DNA from: a virus
Lineage: Duplodnaviria > Heunggongvirae > Uroviricota > Caudoviricetes
Length of the DNA stretch: 30,056 bases
Direction: 5' to 3' (one strand)
Virus record (IMG/VR): IMGVR_UViG_2778261301_000023
The notes beneath the pieces were generated by a model that saw only the letters and a program-made list of their open reading frames with translations, did not search any database and was not told the origin of the DNA. The position numbers were made by a program, and so were the translations under genes. Positions 1 to 9,106 of the stretch are shown here, one piece after another (the first letter of the stretch is position 1; each line of letters opens with the position of its first letter).

Positions 1-1035
1 ATGGAAGATGCAATTCAGGCCTATGAAATCAATGATATTGATGATATAGAAAATATTTTCGGACGAGTTATTTCAGGCGAAGAAATCCACATTGAAAATT
101 TGAAGTTAAACTTCTTAGAAAGTATTGATTTCAAATTTTTTGGTGATGAAGATAAGTATAATGGTACTCTGCCTGCAAGTTTGGCACAGGGTATCTGTGA
201 ATTTCAAACTGAGATGTACAAGGTTTTTACTCTAATCAAGTACAAAACCTCTAACTTACAGAAGCTCACTGCTGAGGATCGAGAAGCTGCAGAGTTGGTT
301 TTTACTATCAATCCTGGCTGCACAGAAATTATCACCTCAGTTAAAGAACTTATTGATTCCTTTGGTAACGCATTTGAGAAGGTAACACAAGGTATGAGCC
401 CAAGACAGAAAACAATGTGTTTCCTGTTTGCTGTCTTAGTTTTAGGCGGCGCATGGGTCGGTACGTCCTACTTAGATCATCAGACACAAGTCGAAACCAA
501 AACTATTGAGTTACAACTGGAAGAAGCAAAACAGCGAGCAGAATCCGAGCGGATGACAATTCTACGCGATGGTATGCTGTCTGCAATAAAAGCACATGAA
601 GGTATTGATACGATAGAGCGCGCCGAAGGTATCCAAGAGCACACAGCTAAGGCATACACTGGAGTTCTTAAAGGTGCATCTGATGCAGACAAAGTGACGA
701 TCCGCGGGGCCAGCAATATTGAGCTTTCGCAAGGTCAGGTTCAAGAAATCATCAAGAACCCAATTGAAAAGGCTAAGTCAGAGCAGCAAACATTGGAAGT
801 TGTCATTGATAGTATAAAACGCTCAGCCGATAAGCTAACGTTAAGCTGCCATGAGCCAACAGGTGATGATTCATTCCCGATCTATGTTGATACCAGTTTT
901 ATCAATGATCCTGATGAAATAGGCTTAATTTTTGACGCGATGAAAAATAATAAAACGGTCAACATCCTTGGTAGTTATAAGATTAGGTCTGGTGTGATAG
1001 AACAAGGTAACGCCTCTACAATCTCACCCCCTTGA
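1..1035 (+). CDS. Hypothetical protein, 344 aa, with one central hydrophobic helix (CFLFAVLVLGGAWVGTSY) followed by a charged coiled-coil-like region; AT-rich accessory gene
   Basis: Intact ORF starting with ATG at the window edge and ending with TGA at 1033-1035, followed by a hairpin. Composition is visibly more AT-rich than the phage structural genes. No recognisable catalytic motif. The true start could lie upstream of the window. Confidence 0.5.
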   Translation: MEDAIQAYEINDIDDIENIFGRVISGEEIHIENLKLNFLESIDFKFFGDEDKYNGTLPASLAQGICEFQTEMYKVFTLIKYKTSNLQKLTAEDREAAELVFTINPGCTEIITSVKELIDSFGNAFEKVTQGMSPRQKTMCFLFAVLVLGGAWVGTSYLDHQTQVETKTIELQLEEAKQRAESERMTILRDGMLSAIKAHEGIDTIERAEGIQEHTAKAYTGVLKGASDADKVTIRGASNIELSQGQVQEIIKNPIEKAKSEQQTLEVVIDSIKRSADKLTLSCHEPTGDDSFPIYVDTSFINDPDEIGLIFDAMKNNKTVNILGSYKIRSGVIEQGNASTISPP

Positions 1036-1040
1036 ACTTC

Positions 1041-1070
1041 AAACCGGCCAATGTGCCGGTTTGTTATTTC
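1041..1070 (+). terminator. Putative intrinsic terminator downstream of the first plus-strand ORF
   Basis: Stem aaaccggc (1041-1048) / gccggttt (1055-1062) with loop caatgt, followed by a T-rich tract (gttatttc). Confidence 0.45.
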
Positions 1071-1133
1071 ATTACAATCCCTCTTGGGTAACATTTTTAT
1101 ATAGATAACAGTCTTAATTTTTGGTAAGGCACC

Positions 1134-1892
1134 ATGCTCACAGAAAAACAGTTTTTTGAACTTATCAAAGCATTACAGTCATCTAATTTCTCAACCACAG
1201 AGATTTTAGGGTTGAGCTTCGCTATTATTATTGCAGCTCTCATAGTGAACTTTATTGTTTCTTTTATAACTGAAAAAGCAAAAATTTCTGCTACCAACGC
1301 TAACTATGAAATACTCAGAAAGCAGTTAGCATTAAATACAACAACTATCAAAGATATAGAAAAAAAGATTACTTCTGAGTTGTGGATTTCTCAACAAATC
1401 TGGCAAAAAAAGTACGATATGTATGAGTACATTTACACTCAGTTACTTAGTATAAAAAAATGGGCTGATAATGAATTTGAAATTATTGAGATTCACATGA
1501 TGCCAACATATGTAGCCAATAGTTATCAAGGATATTTTAATCAAGAACAAGAAAAGCAGTTTTGGGATGAAGTACAACAGGCTCACGAAGACCGTGATAA
1601 AGCACTAAACGATGAAGACCTTAAATTAAAAAATAAAGAGCTACAACAGAAACTTAGCCTAGCCTTCACAGCATTAACAGAGATGATGTTAACTAAAGCA
1701 GTCCTTCTTAATAAAGAAGTAACTGTTATTTTAAATGAATTAATTGAGAATATTGGTACAAATCCGTCCCCACAGGAATATGAAGAACCGGATGATTATG
1801 GATACAGAATCAAGGGGGCCATGGATAAAGCCTTAGAAAAAATAAGAATTAATGCTTTATCTGATTTAGAAATAAAAAATCCAGAATATTAA
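1134..1892 (+). CDS. Hypothetical membrane-anchored protein, 252 aa: N-terminal transmembrane helix (LGLSFAIIIAALIVNFIVSFI) and a long Lys/Glu/Gln-rich coiled-coil-like region; AT-rich accessory gene
   Basis: ATG at 1134 preceded by AAGG 5 nt upstream. Intact ORF, AT-rich. No recognisable enzymatic motif. Confidence 0.5.
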   Translation: MLTEKQFFELIKALQSSNFSTTEILGLSFAIIIAALIVNFIVSFITEKAKISATNANYEILRKQLALNTTTIKDIEKKITSELWISQQIWQKKYDMYEYIYTQLLSIKKWADNEFEIIEIHMMPTYVANSYQGYFNQEQEKQFWDEVQQAHEDRDKALNDEDLKLKNKELQQKLSLAFTALTEMMLTKAVLLNKEVTVILNELIENIGTNPSPQEYEEPDDYGYRIKGAMDKALEKIRINALSDLEIKNPEY

Positions 1893-2007
1893 TCCCCGTC
1901 ATGTGGTGACAGAGGAATAAAATTCAATTTCTCTTGCGCGTGAAATGCGTAAAATGAGTAATGGCTGGAAATCATTCAATACTCGCACTATCAAAAGTTT
2001 ACTAGCC

Positions 2008-2055
2008 AAACCGCAGCACGTCCTGCATACGTCGTGTCTGCGGTTTTTCTTTTTT
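2008..2055 (+). terminator. Putative intrinsic terminator between the convergent plus-strand cargo genes and the minus-strand tail fiber assembly gene
   Basis: Stem aaaccgcag (2008-2016) / ctgcggttt (2037-2045) around an internally paired loop, followed by tttttcttttttg on the plus strand. Confidence 0.35.
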
Positions 2056-2057
2056 GC

Positions 2058-2420
2058 TTACATTGTGTCTGGTTCTTCCGGCCACTCAATATCAGGTGCA
2101 GTTGATGTATCAACACGGTTCAGCAACACCCGATACTTTTTCCAGGCTTCCAGCAACGAATTTTCTTCCTCCGTTGCGATCTCCAGATCTACAGCATCCT
2201 GAAGCGGCGCTATATGCTCACTGGCTACCTGCATCAGGCTGTTTTTTGTTTCTTCCGCCTCCCGGATCCGGAATAGTTTTTCTGCTTCTGCATCTTTCAC
2301 CCAGGCTGTACCGTTCCACTTCTGATATTCCCCTTCCGGCGACAACCAGGTGACATTTTCCGCTAATGGGCCTGGTTCAGAGATAAATAGTGCGTCCCCG
2401 GAAGCCAAGTCAAAGAGCAT
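2058..2420 (-). CDS. tfa: Tail fiber assembly protein, lambda Tfa-like C-terminal region (120 aa, shorter than full-length lambda Tfa)
   Basis: Translation ([14 protein letters not shown]...[35 protein letters not shown]...APDIEWP) closely resembles, from memory, the C-terminal two-thirds of lambda Tfa and related tail fiber assembly proteins. Confidence 0.75.
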
Positions 2421-2513
2421 TTTTCCCCTGTGACCTTCAACGGCTACTTACTGTTTAAAAACAGCTACGATGCCAGCATAGATCCTCTTGAATACGATGT
2501 ACTACGTTTTTTC

Positions 2514-2942
2514 TTATTCTGGACTGAACTCCCTAACCTGCTTCAAATCCAGGAGATTGCTCAGTTCCTCTTTCATTTCACGCTGATGACGATAAATCTC
2601 ATTATTGCGATCAACCTGCGCCTGCGCCATAGCTGCAGCCAGCTCCTCCAGTTCCGTCATCGACAGTTTCACCTGCTGATTATCAGCATCACTCCATGTC
2701 ATAACGTCCCACTGCCCTGAGTCAGCCCCTGCAGCCATTACCACCGGGTAAAGGCGGGCCAGCGAGTCGGGGCCGCCATTCCAGGTGTGTCCGTTCCATT
2801 CGAATGTGAACGGCTGCGCTTCCTGTTCTGTGCGCCACACCTCGATTTCCCGCTTTCTGGCATCCTTTCCCACGGCGATAAGTTCTGGCGTGACGGTGAA
2901 CGCAGGGCTGTCCAGTGGCGCTTTTGTTTTCGTCTCGTCCAT
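2514..2942 (-). CDS. Tail-fibre-derived ORF (142 aa): N-terminus carries the conserved fibre motif (MDETKTKAPLDSPAFT); probably the 3' remnant of a disrupted second tail fiber gene
   Basis: ATG at 2940-2942. The stretch immediately upstream, read in a shifted frame, gives LAATPKAVKTV, matching the conserved LAATPKAVK-VMDETN-KAPL motif that I recall from P2 H and lambda Stf fibers. Confidence 0.45.
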   Translation of the reverse strand: MDETKTKAPLDSPAFTVTPELIAVGKDARKREIEVWRTEQEAQPFTFEWNGHTWNGGPDSLARLYPVVMAAGADSGQWDVMTWSDADNQQVKLSMTELEELAAAMAQAQVDRNNEIYRHQREMKEELSNLLDLKQVREFSPE

Positions 2943-3250
2943 GACGGTTTTGACAGCCTTTGGCGTGGCTGCCAGTACTTCGCTGTCGTTGTCTGTATCA
3001 CTACAGAGTTGCGCCAGACCTTTTTTGTCGTGGAAGCATTGCTTCCCTTCAGATCATCAACTATCCATTGCGCCTCGTCCCTGTGCTGTTTCGCGCTCTG
3101 CTGCGCCTGCACCACAGTTTCCTGTCACCACGTCGGCAACTGTGCGCATCACACCTCTGAGGTGTTTACCCGGGATTTCAGAGTTATGTGGCATCCGTAC
3201 ATGGGGATGCCTGCGCCATCAATCAGCGCACCTGATATCACTACAGACAT
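2943..3250 (-). pseudogene. Degenerate 5' part of a lambdoid side-tail-fibre (Stf-like) gene, broken by frameshifts and a large internal deletion
   Basis: ATG at 3248-3250 opens MSVVISGALIDGAGIPMYGCHITLKSRVNTSEV followed by a stop; the next segments continue in two other frames (..AQAQQSAKQHRDEAQWIVDDLKGSNASTTKK, then ..LAATPKAVKTV). The N-terminus resembles the lambda Stf N-terminus as I recall it. No single frame stays open. Confidence 0.55.
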
Positions 3251-3273
3251 AGTTTTTCTCGCGATAAATTAAA

Positions 3274-3816
3274 TCAGGAAGAGGCTTCCAGAGAGACGGG
3301 CCATTCAATGGCGTTATATGAGGATTTATCAGTGATGGTGCTGAAATCCATCGCCTGCAGCGATTTCGCGTAAATGCGGTACGCTTTCAGCTTCTCCCTG
3401 TCGTCGTCACTGATTAATCCCAGCAGCAGGTCTTTTTCCCATTCGCTGGTCATGATGCTGACCCGTTGTAACAGGGCATCGCGCTCATCTTCCGCTTTAA
3501 GTTTGTAGTCGAAGACAAATTTATCGTCGCGGTAAAACCAGTAACCAGGCACGGTAATACGGCGGTTAGCGGTAATATCAGGAACTTCAATAACACTGGC
3601 GTTACGGGGTTCAATGCCTGTCACATCCTTACCGACCCATACCACGCGCCCGTCTCCGGTGTAAACCATTTTTATGGTGTCACTGGCAAAATTTTTCAGC
3701 TCTTCATACCAGTTTTGGTCATCTTCCGAAAAAAGCCAGGTGATACCATGTTGTTTTGTCATCTGATATTGTTCTGCGGTTTTCGGATTGCCTGCAGTAA
3801 TATTTTTTAAATGCAA
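3274..3816 (-). CDS. Tail fiber assembly protein (Mu U / P2 G-like chaperone), 180 aa
   Basis: Directly downstream of the large fiber gene; size and position are typical. The frame opens with TTG at 3816; an internal ATG (MTKQHG) is an alternative start. Confidence 0.65.
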   Translation of the reverse strand: MHLKNITAGNPKTAEQYQMTKQHGITWLFSEDDQNWYEELKNFASDTIKMVYTGDGRVVWVGKDVTGIEPRNASVIEVPDITANRRITVPGYWFYRDDKFVFDYKLKAEDERDALLQRVSIMTSEWEKDLLLGLISDDDREKLKAYRIYAKSLQAMDFSTITDKSSYNAIEWPVSLEASS

Positions 3817-3821
3817 TATTG

Positions 3822-5375
3822 TTAAACACTCGCCACGTTATACCAGGTGCCGTTAATCAGTTTCTGAAGCGGTCGGTAATACACGCCGTTGACGTTATCC
3901 GCTGAATTTTTACCAGTATCCGATATCGATATCCCTGACAATCCGTGTCCCGCAGGAGCGTGATATGTCCAAGAGATTACATTGCTGCCAGGTTTGTAAT
4001 ACATTTCGGAACCATAGCGCACATCCTGCACGCCGCCATTTCGCTGCTGATAACGGGCATCGAAATTTCCATAGTTTGATGGGGTCATCTGTCCGTTTAC
4101 AGCGAATGTGATACTGCCATCGGTATTTCTCTGGCTGTAAAAATGCCAGCCGGAATCATCACCAAGCTCTGCAACTACAGGTCGGGATGAATTACCCCAT
4201 AAATTAAACGTTGCGTTTTTCGTGGAGTTGTTGGCGCTGGATAACGTGAATTTTTTAGCATTTCCGGCCTGAATATTTTTTAACGCTATCGCCACACCAT
4301 TCTGGAAACGAAATACATGCTGTCCATTCGCATAAACATCCAGAATGCCGTCGCCGTTTTGTTTTATACCTGTATCGTTATCCCCGAAAGCAATTGAGTT
4401 TCCGCCCAGCGCGTTCTGAACGCCGATACCCAGTGCACCATTGACCTGAGAACCACCGCCAACAGACACTTTATGCGACATGGATATCTCTCCTGTCCGC
4501 AAATTAATGGTGAGCGGACGCAGGGGACCAATATCTCCATTCTCGCCCTGACCTTCACTAGTAGGGATAAGGTGCAGGCACTCTTCAGAACGGCGAAAAA
4601 TAAGGCCAAAAGCCTCGTTAAAAATCCTCAATGCATTAACACCACGTATTTTCAGCTCCCCGGTCATCAAATCACCAGATTTTTTTACATATCGCAGATC
4701 AAAATCTGAATAGATATTGCCGGGGTTTATCACACTGAAATAGCTTTTCTCGCTATCAAGAAGGCAAATCAAAGGAATACCCTTAATGATATCATTCGCT
4801 ACCAGCTCGGACTTGTTCCCCTTATAAAGTGGGAACGTACCAAGAACCTTTCCGCCTAGTGTTAGTTGAAGTGTCGCCGCGTTGGTATTGTTCTGAACGG
4901 GGAAAACTATAATCGGGGTTCGTAGCGTCCAATCTGTACCTCCATTAACAAAAAACGTCGAGGGAAGTTCCAGCGTCAGTGCGTTTGCAGTGCCACCAGT
5001 AACACCCGCAATATAATGACCGCTCTGAAGCTGCGCTATTTGTACGAAATAGTTTTCCGAACCACGCGTGGCAAAGTTAGCCACAACATCATTAAGGGAC
5101 CAACCTTTCGCGGTTGTTCCTTCCTGCCCACGAATGACTTTCAACACATCACCGCTTACCGATACCAAGTGACAAATCTCAAATGCAGACTCTTTATTAT
5201 CGGTAAGCGTAATTTTTGCATAGACGCGTTGCCCGTTCGATTTATTTTCAAAATCGGCAGAAAGCAATTTTGCAAATTTAGCCCCTGTACCGGGCATTAC
5301 CGGAATATCAGTCTGAATCGTGGTGATATCACCAGCCAGTGCTGAAACAACGTTATTGCCGAACCCAAGAATCAT
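3822..5375 (-). CDS. Tail fiber protein, 517 aa
   Basis: Large Gly/Asn/Ser/Thr-rich protein between the baseplate genes and the tail fiber assembly gene. Its start overlaps the stop of the upstream gene (ATGA). Confidence 0.7.
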   Translation of the reverse strand: MILGFGNNVVSALAGDITTIQTDIPVMPGTGAKFAKLLSADFENKSNGQRVYAKITLTDNKESAFEICHLVSVSGDVLKVIRGQEGTTAKGWSLNDVVANFATRGSENYFVQIAQLQSGHYIAGVTGGTANALTLELPSTFFVNGGTDWTLRTPIIVFPVQNNTNAATLQLTLGGKVLGTFPLYKGNKSELVANDIIKGIPLICLLDSEKSYFSVINPGNIYSDFDLRYVKKSGDLMTGELKIRGVNALRIFNEAFGLIFRRSEECLHLIPTSEGQGENGDIGPLRPLTINLRTGEISMSHKVSVGGGSQVNGALGIGVQNALGGNSIAFGDNDTGIKQNGDGILDVYANGQHVFRFQNGVAIALKNIQAGNAKKFTLSSANNSTKNATFNLWGNSSRPVVAELGDDSGWHFYSQRNTDGSITFAVNGQMTPSNYGNFDARYQQRNGGVQDVRYGSEMYYKPGSNVISWTYHAPAGHGLSGISISDTGKNSADNVNGVYYRPLQKLINGTWYNVASV

Positions 5376-5998
5376 TTTTGAATCACCGTTGTTGCATAAG
5401 AATAAATAAAAGGGAGTTTTACATATTTCTGGTCAATGGCATCTTTCAGAAAATAGCCTATACCATCACCATATTCTGGTATATGAATAGAAAAAACACT
5501 GTCCGACACAGTCACGCTCACATCAAAAGTGTGCTGCAACGGCGGGTCTATTCCGTTTTTCCCATGAATGAACCGTGCCACACGGCGCTTTAACCAGTCA
5601 ATACAGAAATGCGAACCGTCAGCCTTATAAAAATTCCAAGTTAATATTCGCTTGAAATAATCATCCGGAACATACGATGCCTGCCCCGGAACATAATTCC
5701 GCATTGCCGCATAAGGGATTGTATTGTATTCAATGGTATCGTATGCGCCGCGTGCAATAGCCTCCTCGGAAACCTGTAGTAAAGGCCTTTCAACGCCATA
5801 AATCCCGAGAGCAATCCAGTCCAGCAATTGCCCGGTTATTGATTCCGATGTCCAGCATGGCAATGCCAGATTGTTGAGTGAATCGAGGTATTCCTGAGCA
5901 ATTTCATTGTATGCATCAAAGAACGCAACAACATTCGGATCATCTCTGTACTGCACAAACGGATAAGCAGGGAGAATTTTTTCAGTCAGATATTGCAT
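5372..5998 (-). CDS. Baseplate/tail protein (P2 gpI / Mu gp48-like position)
   Basis: The track ORF runs 5372..6106 but overlaps the J-like gene by about 125 nt. The internal Met (MQYLTEKILPAYPF) at 5998 gives a short, coupling-type overlap. Assignment is by position between the J-like gene and the fiber. Confidence 0.55.
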   Translation of the reverse strand: MQYLTEKILPAYPFVQYRDDPNVVAFFDAYNEIAQEYLDSLNNLALPCWTSESITGQLLDWIALGIYGVERPLLQVSEEAIARGAYDTIEYNTIPYAAMRNYVPGQASYVPDDYFKRILTWNFYKADGSHFCIDWLKRRVARFIHGKNGIDPPLQHTFDVSVTVSDSVFSIHIPEYGDGIGYFLKDAIDQKYVKLPFIYSYATTVIQK

Positions 5999-7208
5999 AC
6001 TTGTTAACTTGAACCTGTGATGCCACTGTCGAAAAATAGGAATAGGTATCGCCATAAACCAGGCTTGTGTCTTTTGCCGGAAGAACAATATGACCATTAA
6101 TGCCAATGCTCACACTGATTGTTGAGATCAACGTCGCATCAACCAGCAACCTGACAGAACTGGTAAAAATATCCTGGATACGCAGAAGATTTATCGGGTG
6201 TCCGACTTCAATTGAATTGATGTAATCAGCAACGTTTTGCTGCACAGCCATAGCAATACCCGCCGGATCAACATAATCATCAGACACCGTGTTCCAGGTG
6301 ATTAGCACCATGACGTTTTGTGATGACGGGATAACGAACGGCACCTGATAAACGTCCGGCGAAACGGTTATTGAAACCGTGCGTTTTTCCACTGCCGCAC
6401 CGGATGGATTGCTTACATCGTTGGTCAGTTTCGAAATATCCGGTACAGATTTGTAAATCGCATAAGCCACATCATACGGATCACCGCCACCAACAACCGC
6501 AACCCATTTCCCCAGCGACGACTGCCGGAAAGAAATCAGGTTTTCTCGCACACCGCTTACTGATTTGAGCATCGCTTTATAGCAATCCGGTGTTCCCTGC
6601 ACACCAAACATACCGGACTCCATGACTTCGGCGCGGTAAGATGCCCACGTCTGCGCCTCCTGACCTGGCATCCCTGCGGTAAGGTTCGTGCATTTTACAG
6701 GCTGGTCTTTTGGTACTGAGGTAATAACCTGCGTCACAGTCCCTTCCGGTACAGCCCATGAGCCTGACGTTGTGGCCACACAGTAGACTGGTTCAGTCTG
6801 CCCACTTTCCGGCACCACCGTATCGCGGGAAACTGCATACTGGTAGTTGCCATCACCGACAACAAATCCTTTAGGGATACCAAACCCCGGCAACGCCTCA
6901 AATACCACGTATACCGCCGTATTTGTACTTAATCCCTTCTGTGCTCCATAAATGTTTCCGAGTTGCATCAGTAACGGAATATTTGCGCCGTATGGGCTTA
7001 CGGAGTTAATAAGGTCCACCCGCGCCTGGTCTATTAATGCCAGCGCCCCGACTGCCGTGCTGGCAAGGTCAGTAATAAGCCCCGCCGGAAGGTTGGCTGT
7101 ATATCCAGGTACTTTTTCAGCAACTCTGATGATAAGATTTGCAAGCAAATCATTGGGTGGCGTAGGCTGCGCCCCCGCACTGGTCATAGTAATTGGTATT
7201 TCTGACAT
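5982..7208 (-). CDS. Baseplate J-like protein, 408 aa
   Basis: Size and position are typical of the baseplate J family in Mu/P2-type tails. GGAG ribosome-binding site upstream of the ATG at 7206-7208. Confidence 0.65.
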   Translation of the reverse strand: MSEIPITMTSAGAQPTPPNDLLANLIIRVAEKVPGYTANLPAGLITDLASTAVGALALIDQARVDLINSVSPYGANIPLLMQLGNIYGAQKGLSTNTAVYVVFEALPGFGIPKGFVVGDGNYQYAVSRDTVVPESGQTEPVYCVATTSGSWAVPEGTVTQVITSVPKDQPVKCTNLTAGMPGQEAQTWASYRAEVMESGMFGVQGTPDCYKAMLKSVSGVRENLISFRQSSLGKWVAVVGGGDPYDVAYAIYKSVPDISKLTNDVSNPSGAAVEKRTVSITVSPDVYQVPFVIPSSQNVMVLITWNTVSDDYVDPAGIAMAVQQNVADYINSIEVGHPINLLRIQDIFTSSVRLLVDATLISTISVSIGINGHIVLPAKDTSLVYGDTYSYFSTVASQVQVNKYAISD

Positions 7209-7220
7209 ATTTACTCCATT

Positions 7221-7246
7221 AAAAAACCCGCTTTCGCGGGTTTTTT
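7221..7246 (-). terminator. Palindromic intrinsic terminator immediately 3' of the inserted nuclease gene and 13 bp upstream of the J-like start
   Basis: aaaaaa-cccgc-tttc-gcggg-tttttt: GC stem flanked by A6 and T6, so it can act in either direction. Confidence 0.6.
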
Positions 7247-7248
7247 AC

Positions 7249-8409
7249 TTATTCAACCTCTTCTAAACTGCTCACTCTGGACCCTCGGCGGAAATTATCA
7301 TCATTTTTAACATACTCGTATGAATCCAGAATCAAACCAGATATGCGAAGTATATCTTCCGGATTAGTTATATGTATCCTTTTACCATCCGTATCAAGTC
7401 GAGCTCGTCTTATTTCATTCAACTGAACTTCACTAAGCGAAATAGGTAAAGTTATAAATGAAGATTTTTTATCATAAAATCTTAACAGCCATCTATTAGT
7501 TTTACCATTCAATAGCACACCAAAATATGACTCAGTATCTTTATATTCTATATTATCTTCTGTTTGTATGATTTGTTTTACCCTTTCAAATAGCTCCAAT
7601 TCTTTGGCTGTGGTTATTATGTTGGGGTTTTCTTCATCAACAATGGCGTTATTAACTTGTGTATCCGTTGCATCATTTTCTTTAGTTTGCTCTACCGGTT
7701 GTGTAGATAGCCCGGAAACCACCATTGCGCTAACAGCGCGCTCAACGGCCTGTTTAACTAATGGAGTCACGAACTCAAGAAATCTCTGATTAAGTTGTCT
7801 CTCAATATTTGAACGACTAGCAACATATCGAACAAACTCCAGATCAACTTCACGAAGACTAGAACTGATTGTTTTAGTAAATGAATTCAAATAAACACTT
7901 TCTTCAGCCAGTGTCCGTAAAGCCTCTGGTTTGAATTTATCATAACGAAAACGAAATAATTGTGTAATATCGGAGTGAGTTAGAGAATCCATTCTTATTT
8001 TTAAAAACGGCGTTGAATCCATTATGTTTTTTTGTTTCAAATCCGTAAAAAAACGCCATTCAACACCATTTGTAATGGCTGATATAGTAACTTCCGGTGT
8101 TGAATTAAAATATCTTGATAGCTGTGGGCAGTGATTATCAATTTGTTCTGAAAACGATTTCGCCTCAATGAACATCACAGGAACATCATGACAAAATAAA
8201 GCGTAATCAACCCGTTCATTAGCCTTAACCCCGGGGAAGTCAGCACTATACTCAGCTTTGACTTTTCTTGGATCATACGGAGTAAAACCAAGAATATCTA
8301 GTAATGGCATAATGAGTGCTTGTTTTGTCGTTTCTTCAGTTGTACAAAACACCCCCATTTTTGCAACATGCTCTGTGTGTATTTTTAACTTATTTGCAAA
8401 ATTTTCCAT
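7249..8409 (-). CDS. Stand-alone PD-(D/E)xK nuclease of the type I restriction HsdR N-terminal (HsdR_N) kind with an uncharacterised C-terminal half; AT-rich cargo gene
   Basis: N-terminal region shows the HsdR_N-type pattern: TTEETTKQALIMPLLDILGF ... RVDYALF ... VMFIEAKSF, giving candidate D and E-x-K catalytic residues. The strong GGAGGAG site lies before the second ATG (8407-8409); the track ORF extends to 8424. The gene is strikingly more AT-rich than the flanking baseplate genes and has its own terminator. Confidence 0.6.
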   Translation of the reverse strand: MENFANKLKIHTEHVAKMGVFCTTEETTKQALIMPLLDILGFTPYDPRKVKAEYSADFPGVKANERVDYALFCHDVPVMFIEAKSFSEQIDNHCPQLSRYFNSTPEVTISAITNGVEWRFFTDLKQKNIMDSTPFLKIRMDSLTHSDITQLFRFRYDKFKPEALRTLAEESVYLNSFTKTISSSLREVDLEFVRYVASRSNIERQLNQRFLEFVTPLVKQAVERAVSAMVVSGLSTQPVEQTKENDATDTQVNNAIVDEENPNIITTAKELELFERVKQIIQTEDNIEYKDTESYFGVLLNGKTNRWLLRFYDKKSSFITLPISLSEVQLNEIRRARLDTDGKRIHITNPEDILRISGLILDSYEYVKNDDNFRRGSRVSSLEEVE

Positions 8410-8437
8410 GCTTGTCTCCTCCATGGTAACAATATGT

Positions 8438-8467
8438 ATTTTGCAAATCCGAAATAATATATGTCAA
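8438..8467 (-). promoter_or_regulatory. Possible sigma70-like promoter for the nuclease cargo gene
   Basis: On the minus strand, TTGACA (plus 8462-8467) is followed after about 18 nt by CAAAAT/CATATT-like -10 candidates inside a 134-bp AT-rich intergenic region. The -10 match is weak. Confidence 0.25.
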
Positions 8468-8558
8468 TATGCTCCAGCTTAGAAAATTACTCGCCCCCCT
8501 AAAATATCTCTCTACAGCACTCCAAACCAAGGTAAAAGTTTTATCATAAAACTGTGAT

Positions 8559-8906
8559 TCATACCGGCACCTGCGTCCGGTAACTGGTCCCATTAAAAAA
8601 CACAACATCGATGTTATAGGTGGGGTTATCTGCTCCATCTACCTTTGAAATTGCCAGTGATGCAAAATACCCAGCAAACTGTTGCTGAACCATGTTCACA
8701 TAGTAGTCTGGGTAAATCTGCTGCACGATGCACTGCTGTGCAGGAATACCGTAATTCGCGTAAAACGGCGACTCCCCCAATCCCAGCTTTAACGTCTGAA
8801 TGAGCGTCGTCAGCCAGCCGTAGGAGAAATCACCGTTGGCGTCAGATTCTACTGCAACCCATTTTTTGTTGCCGTTCGCGTCGGTGACGCGGCCCCATGT
8901 TCTCAT
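8559..8906 (-). CDS. Putative baseplate protein (gpW/gp25-like position), 115 aa
   Basis: Assigned by size and position between the spike-like and J-like genes. I could not confirm any family motif by eye. Confidence 0.4.
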   Translation of the reverse strand: MRTWGRVTDANGNKKWVAVESDANGDFSYGWLTTLIQTLKLGLGESPFYANYGIPAQQCIVQQIYPDYYVNMVQQQFAGYFASLAISKVDGADNPTYNIDVVFFNGTSYRTQVPV

Positions 8907-9106
8907 CGTGCCCCCATCACTTTAACTAACTCTGTCAGTACTGGTGAAAAGGCAAATGCTAAAGCTACGAGTGCAGCGGTGTAATACATGCGTCGTAAGG
9001 TATTGCTTTTTGCCACTAATTTTAAGGCTTTCACAATCCAGTCTCCTCCGCTAAAATTAATCACGGAAGACCTCCAAACATACGTAATCATCCCTTGCGT
9101 ATTCAA
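8903..9106 (-). CDS. Small hypothetical protein with a C-terminal hydrophobic segment (YYTAALVALAFAFSPVL)
   Basis: Short ORF whose stop overlaps the downstream start (ATGA). The start codon is uncertain. Confidence 0.3.
   Translation of the reverse strand: MNTQGMITYVWRSSVINFSGGDWIVKALKLVAKSNTLRRMYYTAALVALAFAFSPVLTELVKVMGAR

What the first reader, a model, noticed from the sequence alone, without database searches (positions are those of the whole stretch)
1..2055. AT-rich two-gene plus-strand module at the distal end of the tail-fiber locus, encoding membrane-anchored coiled-coil proteins
Two intact plus-strand genes (344 and 252 aa) run convergent to the phage late operon, are visibly AT-rich, and each is followed by its own terminator hairpin. 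The first has a central transmembrane helix; the second has an N-terminal transmembrane helix followed by a long coiled coil. Neither shows a motif I can name. The position just beyond the Tfa genes is a classic moron or cargo position. Membrane plus coiled-coil pairs are common in abortive-infection and exclusion systems, but the function here is unknown, and the true start of the first gene may lie outside the window.
Basis: partly seen in the sequence, partly recalled or inferred. Interest (0 to 1): 0.65.

Follow-up and report, generated by a model that had tools for sequence, protein, structure and literature searches.

The report
Two independent prophage membrane-protein cargo genes
The two AT-rich genes are real and intact, but they are two unrelated single-gene prophage "add-on" cassettes that sit side by side in only one E. 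coli prophage lineage; the first belongs to an uncharacterised membrane-protein family that normally sits right behind the phage repressor gene, so it is a reasonable untested candidate for blocking infection by other phages.

Summary
Two intact plus-strand genes (344 aa at 1-1035; 252 aa at 1134-1892) have 33-42% GC against about 50% elsewhere. They run convergent to the tail-fibre genes, each has one transmembrane helix, and both are under strong purifying selection (dN/dS 0.06-0.13).

The "two-gene module" reading does not hold.
- The genes are adjacent only in one E. coli prophage lineage, integrated in the 5' end of prfC (28 of 5,426 complete genomes).
- 51 other ORF1 loci lack ORF2, and 17 other ORF2 loci lack ORF1.
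- A strong terminator separates the two genes.

ORF1 is a PHROG 6191 member of unknown function. In 20 of 28 distinct viral loci its homologue sits directly downstream of a cI-type repressor, the slot that holds rexAB and bstA in other phages. The predicted structure has an N-terminal alpha/beta domain, one TM helix, a helical hairpin and a C-terminal OB-fold, which is probably periplasmic.

ORF2 has an N-terminal TM helix followed by a long stalk helix and a generic four-helix bundle, predicted cytoplasmic. It occurs as a solitary gene at prophage or integrative-element ends.

Neither protein matches Pfam, NCBIfam, PADLOC or any solved structure by sequence, and every source calls them hypothetical. 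The best reading is two autonomous moron cassettes. ORF1 is a plausible lysogen-expressed envelope-level exclusion or defence factor. All functional claims are inference.

The parts
1..1035 (+). ORF1, 344 aa, PHROG 6191 family. Predicted bitopic inner-membrane protein: N-terminal alpha/beta domain (aa 1-130), TM helix (aa ~138-158; nt 412-474), helical hairpin (aa 169-225), C-terminal beta domain with OB fold (aa ~231-342; nt 691-1026).
1040..1073 (+). Intrinsic terminator after ORF1 (9-bp GC-rich stem, loop 6, T-rich tail). It separates ORF1 from ORF2.
   Evidence: dG -16.8, z -4.9. The block of 114 bp upstream + ORF1 + this hairpin is conserved as a unit in other prophages that lack ORF2.
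1134..1892 (+). ORF2, 252 aa. Short N-terminal tail, TM helix (aa ~24-46; nt 1203-1271), continuous stalk helix to aa 128, then a four-helix bundle to aa 244. Predicted N-out/C-in. The family core is aa 23-105 with a W84/Q87/W90 motif.
1948..2055 (+). Conserved ~100-bp lambdoid 'post-tfa' element ending in a strong plus-strand terminator hairpin (2008-2046) plus T-run. It acts as the distal terminator for ORF2. In genomic copies a second copy of the element lies upstream of ORF1, just after dinI, so the two copies flank the two-gene segment as direct repeats.
   Evidence: (2,813 of 5,426 E. coli genomes; HK97, mEp460 and others)

Best explanation
The region holds two unrelated, independently mobile single-gene prophage accessory cassettes (morons). 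They became neighbours once, in a lambdoid prophage lineage integrated in the 5' end of prfC. They are not a two-component system.

**ORF1 (PHROG 6191).** It is a single-pass inner-membrane protein. A ~135-aa N-terminal domain is predicted cytoplasmic. A C-terminal helical hairpin plus OB-fold domain is predicted periplasmic. Its usual genomic home is immediately downstream of the cI-type repressor of lambdoid phages, so it is presumably made in lysogens from the repressor operon.

The most likely role (inferred, not shown) is protection of the lysogen against superinfecting phages at the cell envelope. The periplasmic domain would meet the incoming tail-tip, tape-measure or ejection-protein conduit and block genome delivery across the inner membrane, as P22 SieA and HK97 gp15 do. 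The conserved cytoplasmic domain would either stabilise the protein or transmit a signal.

**ORF2.** It is an N-out/C-in membrane-anchored stalk plus four-helix bundle with no catalytic signature. It travels alone as terminal cargo of prophages and integrative elements, sometimes beside known defence genes. Its role is probably also phage- or MGE-conflict related, but this is much less certain.

**Shown:** gene integrity, purifying selection, independence of the two genes, prophage location, the cI-adjacent synteny of the ORF1 family, and the predicted folds.

**Inferred:** expression in lysogens, topology, and any anti-phage activity or mechanism.
For: **Independence**
- ORF1 homologues occur in 10 sequenced phages; ORF2 has no hit in the phage collection.
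- Among fetched loci, 15 carry both genes, all the same 98-100% lineage. 51 carry ORF1 only and 17 carry ORF2 only, most of them with flanks of 4 kb (ORF1 loci) or 8 kb (ORF2 loci).
- In complete E. coli genomes, 28 carry the pair, all seen at prfC. Five carry a 67%-identical ORF1 alone and 7 different genomes carry a 71%-identical ORF2 alone.
- A terminator lies between the genes.
- A 95%-identical ORF1 (L027) sits without ORF2 among effector-like genes I judged by eye to resemble NleG and a pentapeptide-repeat effector. The conserved DNA block there is 114 bp upstream + ORF1 + terminator.

**cI synteny**
- In mEp332, PhiR12_x, phi458 and E. coli MDK9L1 the homologue is the next gene after cI.
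- 20 of 28 distinct upstream neighbours in IMG/VR loci carry Peptidase_S24, and 19 carry HTH_3.
- These repressors are highly diverse (24% mean column identity), so ORF1 is not tied to one repressor.
- The cI-N interval is a documented hotspot that holds rexAB and bstA and is highly transcribed in lysogens (PMC8585504).

**Structure and topology**
- Charge bias around the TM helices.
- A 137-aa N-terminal domain with no signal peptide is expected to stay cytoplasmic (established membrane-protein biogenesis knowledge).

**ORF2 context**
- It sits at prophage ends next to SRAP, UmuDC, DinI, RnlAB, a T5orf172 gene or integrases, as a solo insertion in Aeromonas, and in one distant member beside two CAP12-PCTIR_TIR genes.

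**Inside the prophage:**

**Analogues:** inner-membrane proteins that block or attack DNA during injection include SieA (PMC10883804) and SNIPE (PMC13190303).
Against: - There is no functional, expression or localisation data for either protein.
- No hit to any of the 5,027 PADLOC models. None of the four RefSeq accessions checked for the two proteins appears in the DefensePredictor supplements. All database names are 'hypothetical protein'.
- The topology call for ORF1 is weak on charge bias alone (13 versus 5 sequences). If the OB-fold domain were cytoplasmic, a nucleic-acid-binding mechanism would be more likely than a periplasmic block.
- In the window itself ORF1 is not behind cI, so expression depends on an unverified own promoter; the consensus scan found none in the 114-bp upstream block.
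- Position-based inference ('guilt by location') also fits non-defence lysogenic-conversion genes.
- ORF2 contexts are cargo-like but only loosely defence-associated.
Confidence: 0.5

Rival explanations
1. Obligate two-gene membrane abortive-infection or exclusion system: ORF1 and ORF2 act together, for example as sensor plus effector like RexA/RexB.
For: The genes are adjacent, on the same strand and 98 bp apart. Both are membrane proteins with similar AT-rich composition. The pair is stably kept in 28 complete E. coli genomes.
Against: There is no co-occurrence outside one near-identical lineage: 51 ORF1-only loci and 17 ORF2-only loci, and disjoint sets of E. coli genomes carry the diverged single genes. 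ORF2 is absent from all 50,697 phage records while ORF1 is present in 10. A strong terminator lies between them. A 95%-identical ORF1 moves as its own promoter-gene-terminator block.
Confidence: 0.05
2. Single-gene abortive-infection effectors: on sensing infection, one or both proteins oligomerise through their TM or stalk helices and permeabilise the inner membrane, killing the infected cell rather than blocking entry.
For: The cI-adjacent slot also hosts abortive-infection systems (rexAB, bstA; PMC8585504). Both are bitopic proteins with long helices. One distant ORF2 relative sits next to TIR-domain effector genes.
Against: Each protein has a single TM helix and large, well-conserved soluble domains on one or both sides. 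No known pore-forming or effector domain was detected. No toxicity data exist.
Confidence: 0.15
3. Lysogenic-conversion or fitness genes unrelated to phage defence, for example envelope-stress tolerance, colonisation or virulence-associated cargo, like other morons carried beyond the tail-fibre genes.
For: The tail-end cargo region also holds Lom and DinI-like genes, and ORFs I judged by eye to resemble NleG and a pentapeptide-repeat effector (L027). The ORF2 fold resembles four-helix-bundle sensor domains only generically. Hosts include UPEC and mastitis strains.
Against: The dominant location of the ORF1 family is the repressor operon of diverse lambdoid phages in several genera, a slot so far linked to phage-phage conflict. 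Inner-membrane anchoring argues against direct host-cell interaction.
Confidence: 0.22
4. The genes serve the phage's own life cycle. For example, ORF1 could be a transmembrane sensor that feeds envelope signals into the lysis-lysogeny decision, or a factor in lysis or DNA entry.
For: ORF1 is a bitopic protein with folded domains on both sides of the membrane, encoded next to cI/cro.
Against: ORF1 stays under strong purifying selection when moved far from any repressor (dN/dS 0.06-0.09). Its neighbouring repressors are extremely diverse. It is absent from most lambdoid phages: only 10 of 50,697 phage records. ORF2 occurs outside prophages altogether, in Aeromonas.
Confidence: 0.08

Closest known systems
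Lambda rexAB / Salmonella BTP1 bstA (accessory defence genes in the cI-N interval of lambdoid phages)
   Same: ORF1 homologues occupy the same slot: the next gene downstream of a cI-type repressor, same strand, with a 60-100 bp gap. That slot is a known mosaic hotspot transcribed in lysogens (PMC8585504).
   Different: No sequence similarity was found to lambda or P22 by tblastn against the phage collection, and PADLOC gave no significant hit. ORF1 is a single gene with one TM helix. RexB is polytopic and needs RexA; BstA is a soluble KilA-N protein (own knowledge). In the window ORF1 is not in this slot but in the post-tfa cargo region.
P22 SieA, HK97 gp15 and T4 Imm (prophage or phage inner-membrane proteins that block DNA injection)
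   Same: These are small-to-medium inner-membrane proteins encoded as autonomous accessory genes. They act on the periplasmic or inner-membrane DNA-delivery conduit (SieA: PMC10883804). HK97 gp15 is itself a moron near the tail genes (own knowledge). This is the mechanism proposed here for ORF1.
   Different: There is no detectable homology. ORF1 is larger and has folded domains on both sides of the membrane, including an OB fold. The function is untested.
SNIPE / PD-lambda-1 (membrane-anchored nuclease that cuts phage DNA during injection)
   Same: ORF2 has the same predicted topology: short periplasmic N-terminus, one TM helix and an elongated cytoplasmic helical region (PMC13190303). The SNIPE paper reports highly variable TM-containing N-terminal anchor regions among SNIPE homologues.
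   Different: Neither ORF has DUF4041 or a GIY-YIG nuclease domain, and neither matches any PADLOC model. The ORF2 cytoplasmic part is a plain four-helix bundle with no catalytic motif.
Morons of HK97/HK022-type lambdoid phages (promoter-gene-terminator cassettes of deviant composition)
   Same: Both genes show deviant GC, an own terminator, insertion between conserved phage modules, and movement as a unit between unrelated contexts.
   Different: The promoters are not demonstrated. Here two unrelated cassettes are stacked and jointly flanked by ~100-bp direct repeats.

Membership tests
PHROG 6191 (phage protein family, function unknown) | Full-length match to the family HMM | tested here: met
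   ORF1 aa 4-342 matches profile positions 4-332 of 338, E 2.2e-92. ORF2 matches no PHROG.
Moron (autonomous prophage accessory cassette) | Nucleotide composition differs from the flanking phage genes | tested here: met
   GC is 0.33-0.42 against about 0.5.
Moron (autonomous prophage accessory cassette) | Own intrinsic terminator | tested here: met
   ORF1: hairpin at 1040-1063, z -4.9. ORF2: hairpin at 2008-2046 plus T-run, z -4.3, 116 nt after the stop codon.
Moron (autonomous prophage accessory cassette) | Own promoter active in the lysogen | tested here: inconclusive
   The consensus scan finds no good sigma-70 site upstream of either gene. A conserved 114-bp upstream block with a -10-like TAGTAT exists for ORF1. 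Expression cannot be tested with these tools.
Moron (autonomous prophage accessory cassette) | The same cassette is found in unrelated genomic contexts | tested here: met
   ORF1 occurs after cI, in tail-end cargo with effector-like genes (L027), and at prfC. ORF2 occurs at icd, purB and other prophage ends and as a solo gene in Aeromonas.
Multi-gene defence system (operonic pair) | Conserved co-occurrence and synteny of the components across taxa | tested here: not met
   15 loci carry both genes, all one 98-100% lineage. 51 are ORF1-only and 17 are ORF2-only. The single-gene E. coli genome sets are disjoint.
RexAB | Homology to RexA or RexB; two-component architecture with a polytopic RexB | tested here: not met
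   tblastn against the phage collection gave no hit to lambda, and PADLOC gave only insignificant hits (E about 0.02), none to a Rex model. Each ORF has a single TM helix. Only the genomic slot is shared, and only by ORF1 homologues.
SNIPE / PD-lambda-1 | DUF4041 plus GIY-YIG nuclease domains behind an N-terminal membrane anchor | tested here: not met
   No Pfam or PADLOC match for either ORF or for 57 ORF2-family members. Only the anchor topology of ORF2 is similar.
Superinfection-exclusion injection blockers (SieA-like, functional class) | Inner-membrane localisation | tested here: inconclusive
   This rests on prediction only: one strong hydrophobic helix in each protein and helical in the AF2 models. 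No fractionation data exist.
Superinfection-exclusion injection blockers (SieA-like, functional class) | Blocks DNA entry of superinfecting phage without blocking adsorption; escape mutations map to ejection or tape-measure proteins | not testable with these tools
   This needs plaque, adsorption and DNA-injection assays.
OB-fold domain (structural class) | Five-stranded closed beta-barrel superimposable on known OB folds | tested here: met
   [not shown]

The most novel reading that the evidence does not exclude
The ORF1 family (PHROG 6191) is a previously unrecognised, widespread single-gene anti-phage factor of lambdoid prophages that works across the inner membrane. A periplasmic OB-fold domain would recognise the incoming phage DNA-delivery apparatus, or the DNA itself. 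A conserved cytoplasmic domain would execute exclusion. This would be a transmembrane 'sense outside, act inside' design not described for known superinfection-exclusion proteins. ORF2 would be a second new single-gene membrane-anchored defence family.
Probability: 0.3. Interest if true: 0.65.

Novelty: new member of a known kind. Interest (0 to 1): 0.4.

Why it matters
The repressor-adjacent slot of lambdoid phages has already yielded RexAB and BstA (PMC8585504) and, from my own knowledge, Nun and Stk. ORF1 defines another conserved occupant of that slot. It has no annotation and no match in any defence database. Single alleles were seen on 408-620 contigs each, and the predicted architecture (cytoplasmic domain, TM helix, periplasmic OB fold) differs from known exclusion proteins.

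It is cheap to test, because one gene can be cloned and challenged with a phage panel. A positive result would add a new mechanism class for blocking phage genome entry.

Showing that the apparent pair is two stacked cassettes also warns against inferring 'systems' from adjacency in prophage cargo regions. The ~100-bp repeat that flanks cassettes beyond tfa hints at how such cargo is exchanged.

Tried and rejected
- **Family libraries.** Pfam, NCBIfam and PADLOC scans of both proteins gave only insignificant hits: Csx16, LeoBC and PspC at E of about 0.02-0.1. Pfam, PADLOC and PHROG scans of 57 diverse ORF2-family members showed no consistent family.
- **Solved structures.** Profile searches against PDB sequences found nothing for ORF1. 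For ORF2 they found only noise at E>0.3.
- **Viral structure library.** A Foldseek search of BFVD with the ORF1 model found only two uncharacterised phage proteins at E<=1e-3, both with low TM-scores.
- **Species-representative genomes.** The scan for ORF2 returned only two loci.
- **Literature.** Searches for mEp332, PhiR12, the RefSeq accessions and PHROG 6191 found no study of these proteins. The DefensePredictor supplements do not list the accessions. The Brenes & Laub 2025 paper, whose authors I believe deposited the PhiR12/mEp332 genomes, is not held.
- **cI remnant upstream of ORF1.** I tested whether the 350 bp upstream of ORF1 in E. coli 1303 is a remnant of a cI gene. blastx found no similarity.
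- **phi458 homologue.** I considered that it might carry a swapped C-terminal domain. Inspection shows the same architecture at low identity, so I did not pursue domain shuffling.
- **SCU-306 pair.** The 89-91% identical pair is not an older diverged pair; that assembly is full of frameshifts.
- **GenBank label.** The annotation 'T2SS GspM containing protein' could not be reproduced with Pfam at E<=1.
Full report
**1. What is in the sequence**

Window 1-2055 holds two intact plus-strand ORFs: 1-1035 (344 aa) and 1134-1892 (252 aa). GC is 0.33-0.42 here, against about 0.45-0.55 for most of the window. Downstream, on the minus strand, lie a truncated tail-fibre assembly gene (2058-2420, Caudo_TAP), a DUF4376 gene, a second Caudo_TAP gene, a 517-aa fibre gene and a Baseplate_J gene. 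The two genes are therefore convergent with the late operon.

ORF1 is followed at 1040-1063 by a GC-rich hairpin with a T-rich tail (dG -16.8, z -4.9). The plus-strand terminator serving ORF2 is 116 nt past its stop codon, at 2008-2046, followed by TTTTTCTTTTTT (dG -20, z -4.3). Each protein has one strongly hydrophobic helix: ORF1 at aa ~138-158 and ORF2 at aa ~24-46.

Both are real genes. dN/dS against homologues is 0.06-0.09 for ORF1 and 0.10-0.13 for ORF2. Homologues occur across Enterobacterales, Aeromonas and a Pasteurella phage.

ORF1 is complete in the window. Identical genomic copies are annotated with the same start, AAGGA lies 6 nt upstream, and the only alternative in-frame ATG adds 6 codons. 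Several IMG/VR prophage contigs end exactly at this ATG. The window edge may therefore be a prophage-prediction boundary rather than a biological one.

**2. Genomic setting**

The 2,055 bp recur at 98-100% identity in 28 of 5,426 complete E. coli genomes, including strain 1303 (100%) and UTI89 (98%). In the copies I inspected the order is prfC, a DinI-like gene, 450 bp of spacer, ORF1, ORF2, then tfa, stf, lom and J of a lambda-like prophage.

Homology to K-12 stops 24 bp inside prfC. The prophage is thus integrated in the 5' end of prfC, and the DinI-like gene, ORF1 and ORF2 all lie inside it.

The window itself is mosaic. Positions 1-2902 match the prfC prophage, while 2329-9000 match a different, baseplate-J-type prophage. 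No complete genome carries the two parts contiguously.

**3. The two genes are not a pair**

- ORF1 homologues occur in 10 sequenced phages, while ORF2 has no hit in 50,697 phage records.
- Across all loci fetched, 15 carry both genes, and all belong to the same 98-100% lineage. 51 carry ORF1 only and 17 carry ORF2 only, most of them with flanks of 4 kb (ORF1 loci) or 8 kb (ORF2 loci).
- In complete E. coli genomes, five carry a 67%-identical ORF1 alone. Seven different genomes carry a 71%-identical ORF2 alone.
- The one apparently diverged pair (SCU-306, 89-91%) is a frameshift-ridden assembly of the same locus.
- A 95%-identical ORF1 (L027) lies without ORF2 among genes I judged by eye to resemble an NleG-type and a pentapeptide-repeat effector. 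The DNA conserved with the window is exactly 114 bp upstream + ORF1 + its terminator, which is the layout of a moron.

Together with the terminator between the genes, this rejects the two-gene-module reading.

**4. ORF1**

ORF1 matches PHROG 6191 (function unknown) end to end, at E 2e-92. It matches nothing significant in Pfam, NCBIfam, PADLOC or PDB sequences.

Its homologues have a characteristic home. In phages mEp332 (43% identity), PhiR12_1 to _5 (67%) and phi458 (27%), and in E. coli MDK9L1, the gene is the next one downstream of cI on the same strand. Among 28 distinct upstream neighbours taken from IMG/VR loci, 20 carry Peptidase_S24 and 19 carry HTH_3, as cI-type repressors do. These repressors are very diverse (24% mean column identity), so ORF1 is not matched to one repressor.

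The cI-N interval is a recognised mosaic hotspot. It holds rexAB in lambda and bstA in BTP1 and is highly transcribed in lysogens (PMC8585504).

AlphaFold2 (30 sequences, pLDDT 81, pTM 0.73) predicts these elements:
- an alpha/beta domain at aa 1-130;
- a TM helix;
- a disordered linker at aa 156-170;
- a helical hairpin at aa 169-225;
- a beta-rich C-terminal domain.

Charge bias around the TM helix mildly favours N-in/C-out (13 versus 5 sequences; the C-side is acidic). A 137-aa N-terminal domain with no signal peptide is expected to stay cytoplasmic (general knowledge of membrane-protein biogenesis). The OB-fold domain is therefore probably periplasmic.

**5. ORF2**

The close family (47-90% identity) is spread over Klebsiella, Citrobacter, Proteus, Yersinia, Pectobacterium, Pantoea and Aeromonas. 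An exhaustive profile search finds 184 representative relatives at E<=1e-3 and 36 at E<=1e-10. Most are 200-260 aa and share aa 23-105, the TM helix plus the first part of the stalk. W84 is invariant, and Q87 and W90 are nearly so. None of 57 members has a consistent Pfam, PADLOC or PHROG match.

The gene is always solitary. It sits at the far end of lambdoid prophages next to SRAP, UmuDC, DinI, RnlAB or T5orf172 genes, or next to integrases at icd. In Aeromonas it is a single-gene insertion between formate-dehydrogenase genes. One distant member lies beside two CAP12-PCTIR_TIR genes.

**6. How it most likely works**

The following points are shown:
- two autonomous cassettes;
- location inside a prophage;
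- purifying selection on both genes;
- cI synteny of the ORF1 family;
- the predicted folds.

The rest is inferred. ORF1 is probably produced in lysogens and anchored in the inner membrane. The best-fitting role is exclusion of superinfecting phages at the envelope. Its periplasmic hairpin and OB-fold domain would be positioned to meet the tail-tip, tape-measure or ejection-protein conduit and block genome delivery, as shown for P22 SieA (PMC10883804). An abortive-infection role, as for RexAB or BstA in the same slot, is the main mechanistic rival.

ORF2 has the topology of the SNIPE anchor (N-out, TM helix, elongated cytoplasmic region; PMC13190303) but carries no nuclease or any other catalytic domain. 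Its function is open. A role in phage or MGE conflict is suggested only by its cargo context. A non-defence lysogenic-conversion role cannot be excluded for either gene.

**7. Comparison, novelty and score**

The pair is not a member of RexAB, SNIPE or any PADLOC system; defining features were tested and not met. ORF1 is a member of PHROG 6191. Both genes fit the moron concept, except that their promoters are unproven.

Every database name is 'hypothetical protein', and I found no paper on either protein. I rate this as a new member of a known kind: uncharacterised prophage accessory membrane proteins.

Interest is moderate (0.4). However, ORF1 is a common, well-conserved and unannotated occupant of a slot with a strong record of exclusion and defence genes. 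It has an unusual two-sided membrane architecture and can be tested easily.

Noticed in passing
[not shown]
   Followed up: partly
window 2101-2299, minus strand: Full-length, high-scoring match to Rfam RF02111 (IS009): 220 bits against a gathering score of 117. It lies inside the 3' part of the truncated tail-fibre assembly gene.
   Followed up: no
window 7249-8424, minus strand: An AT-rich (about 36% GC) 391-aa ORF is inserted between baseplate genes. It has an N-terminal HSDR_N domain, as in type I restriction R subunits (Pfam E 5.6e-14), and no PADLOC match. It looks like another moron and a possible defence gene inside the tail module.
   Followed up: partly
window 1-2902 versus 2329-9000: The window is a mosaic. 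1-2902 is 99.5% identical to the lambda-like prophage at prfC (E. coli 1303). 2329-9000 is 99.7% identical to a different baseplate-J-type prophage. The overlap lies in the tfa/DUF4376 genes. None of 5,426 complete E. coli genomes has the two parts contiguous.
   Followed up: partly
L001 11063-11110 (E. coli 1303, prfC 5' end): The prophage carrying the two genes is integrated inside the 5' end of prfC and supplies a new N-terminus: MTSLLAAEVAKRR (1303) against K-12 MTLSPYLQEVAKRR, which I translated by eye from the K-12 sequence printed. It presumably also supplies a new promoter for release factor 3.
   Followed up: partly
L001 11887-12000 (= 114 bp upstream of window position 1); L027 3886-4000; L028 242-365: A conserved block upstream of the tail-end copies of ORF1 contains a -10-like TAGTAT and the palindrome GTGATTTAGATCAC. 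An AAGGA Shine-Dalgarno motif 6-7 nt before the ATG is kept in the six family members whose upstream sequence I examined. This may be the cassette's own promoter and operator.
   Followed up: partly
L089 685-3417 (metagenome contig SRR32481289_72339): A distant ORF2-family member (E 2.6e-10) lies directly downstream of two CAP12-PCTIR_TIR genes on the same strand. This is the only clearly defence-like neighbourhood seen for the family.
   Followed up: no
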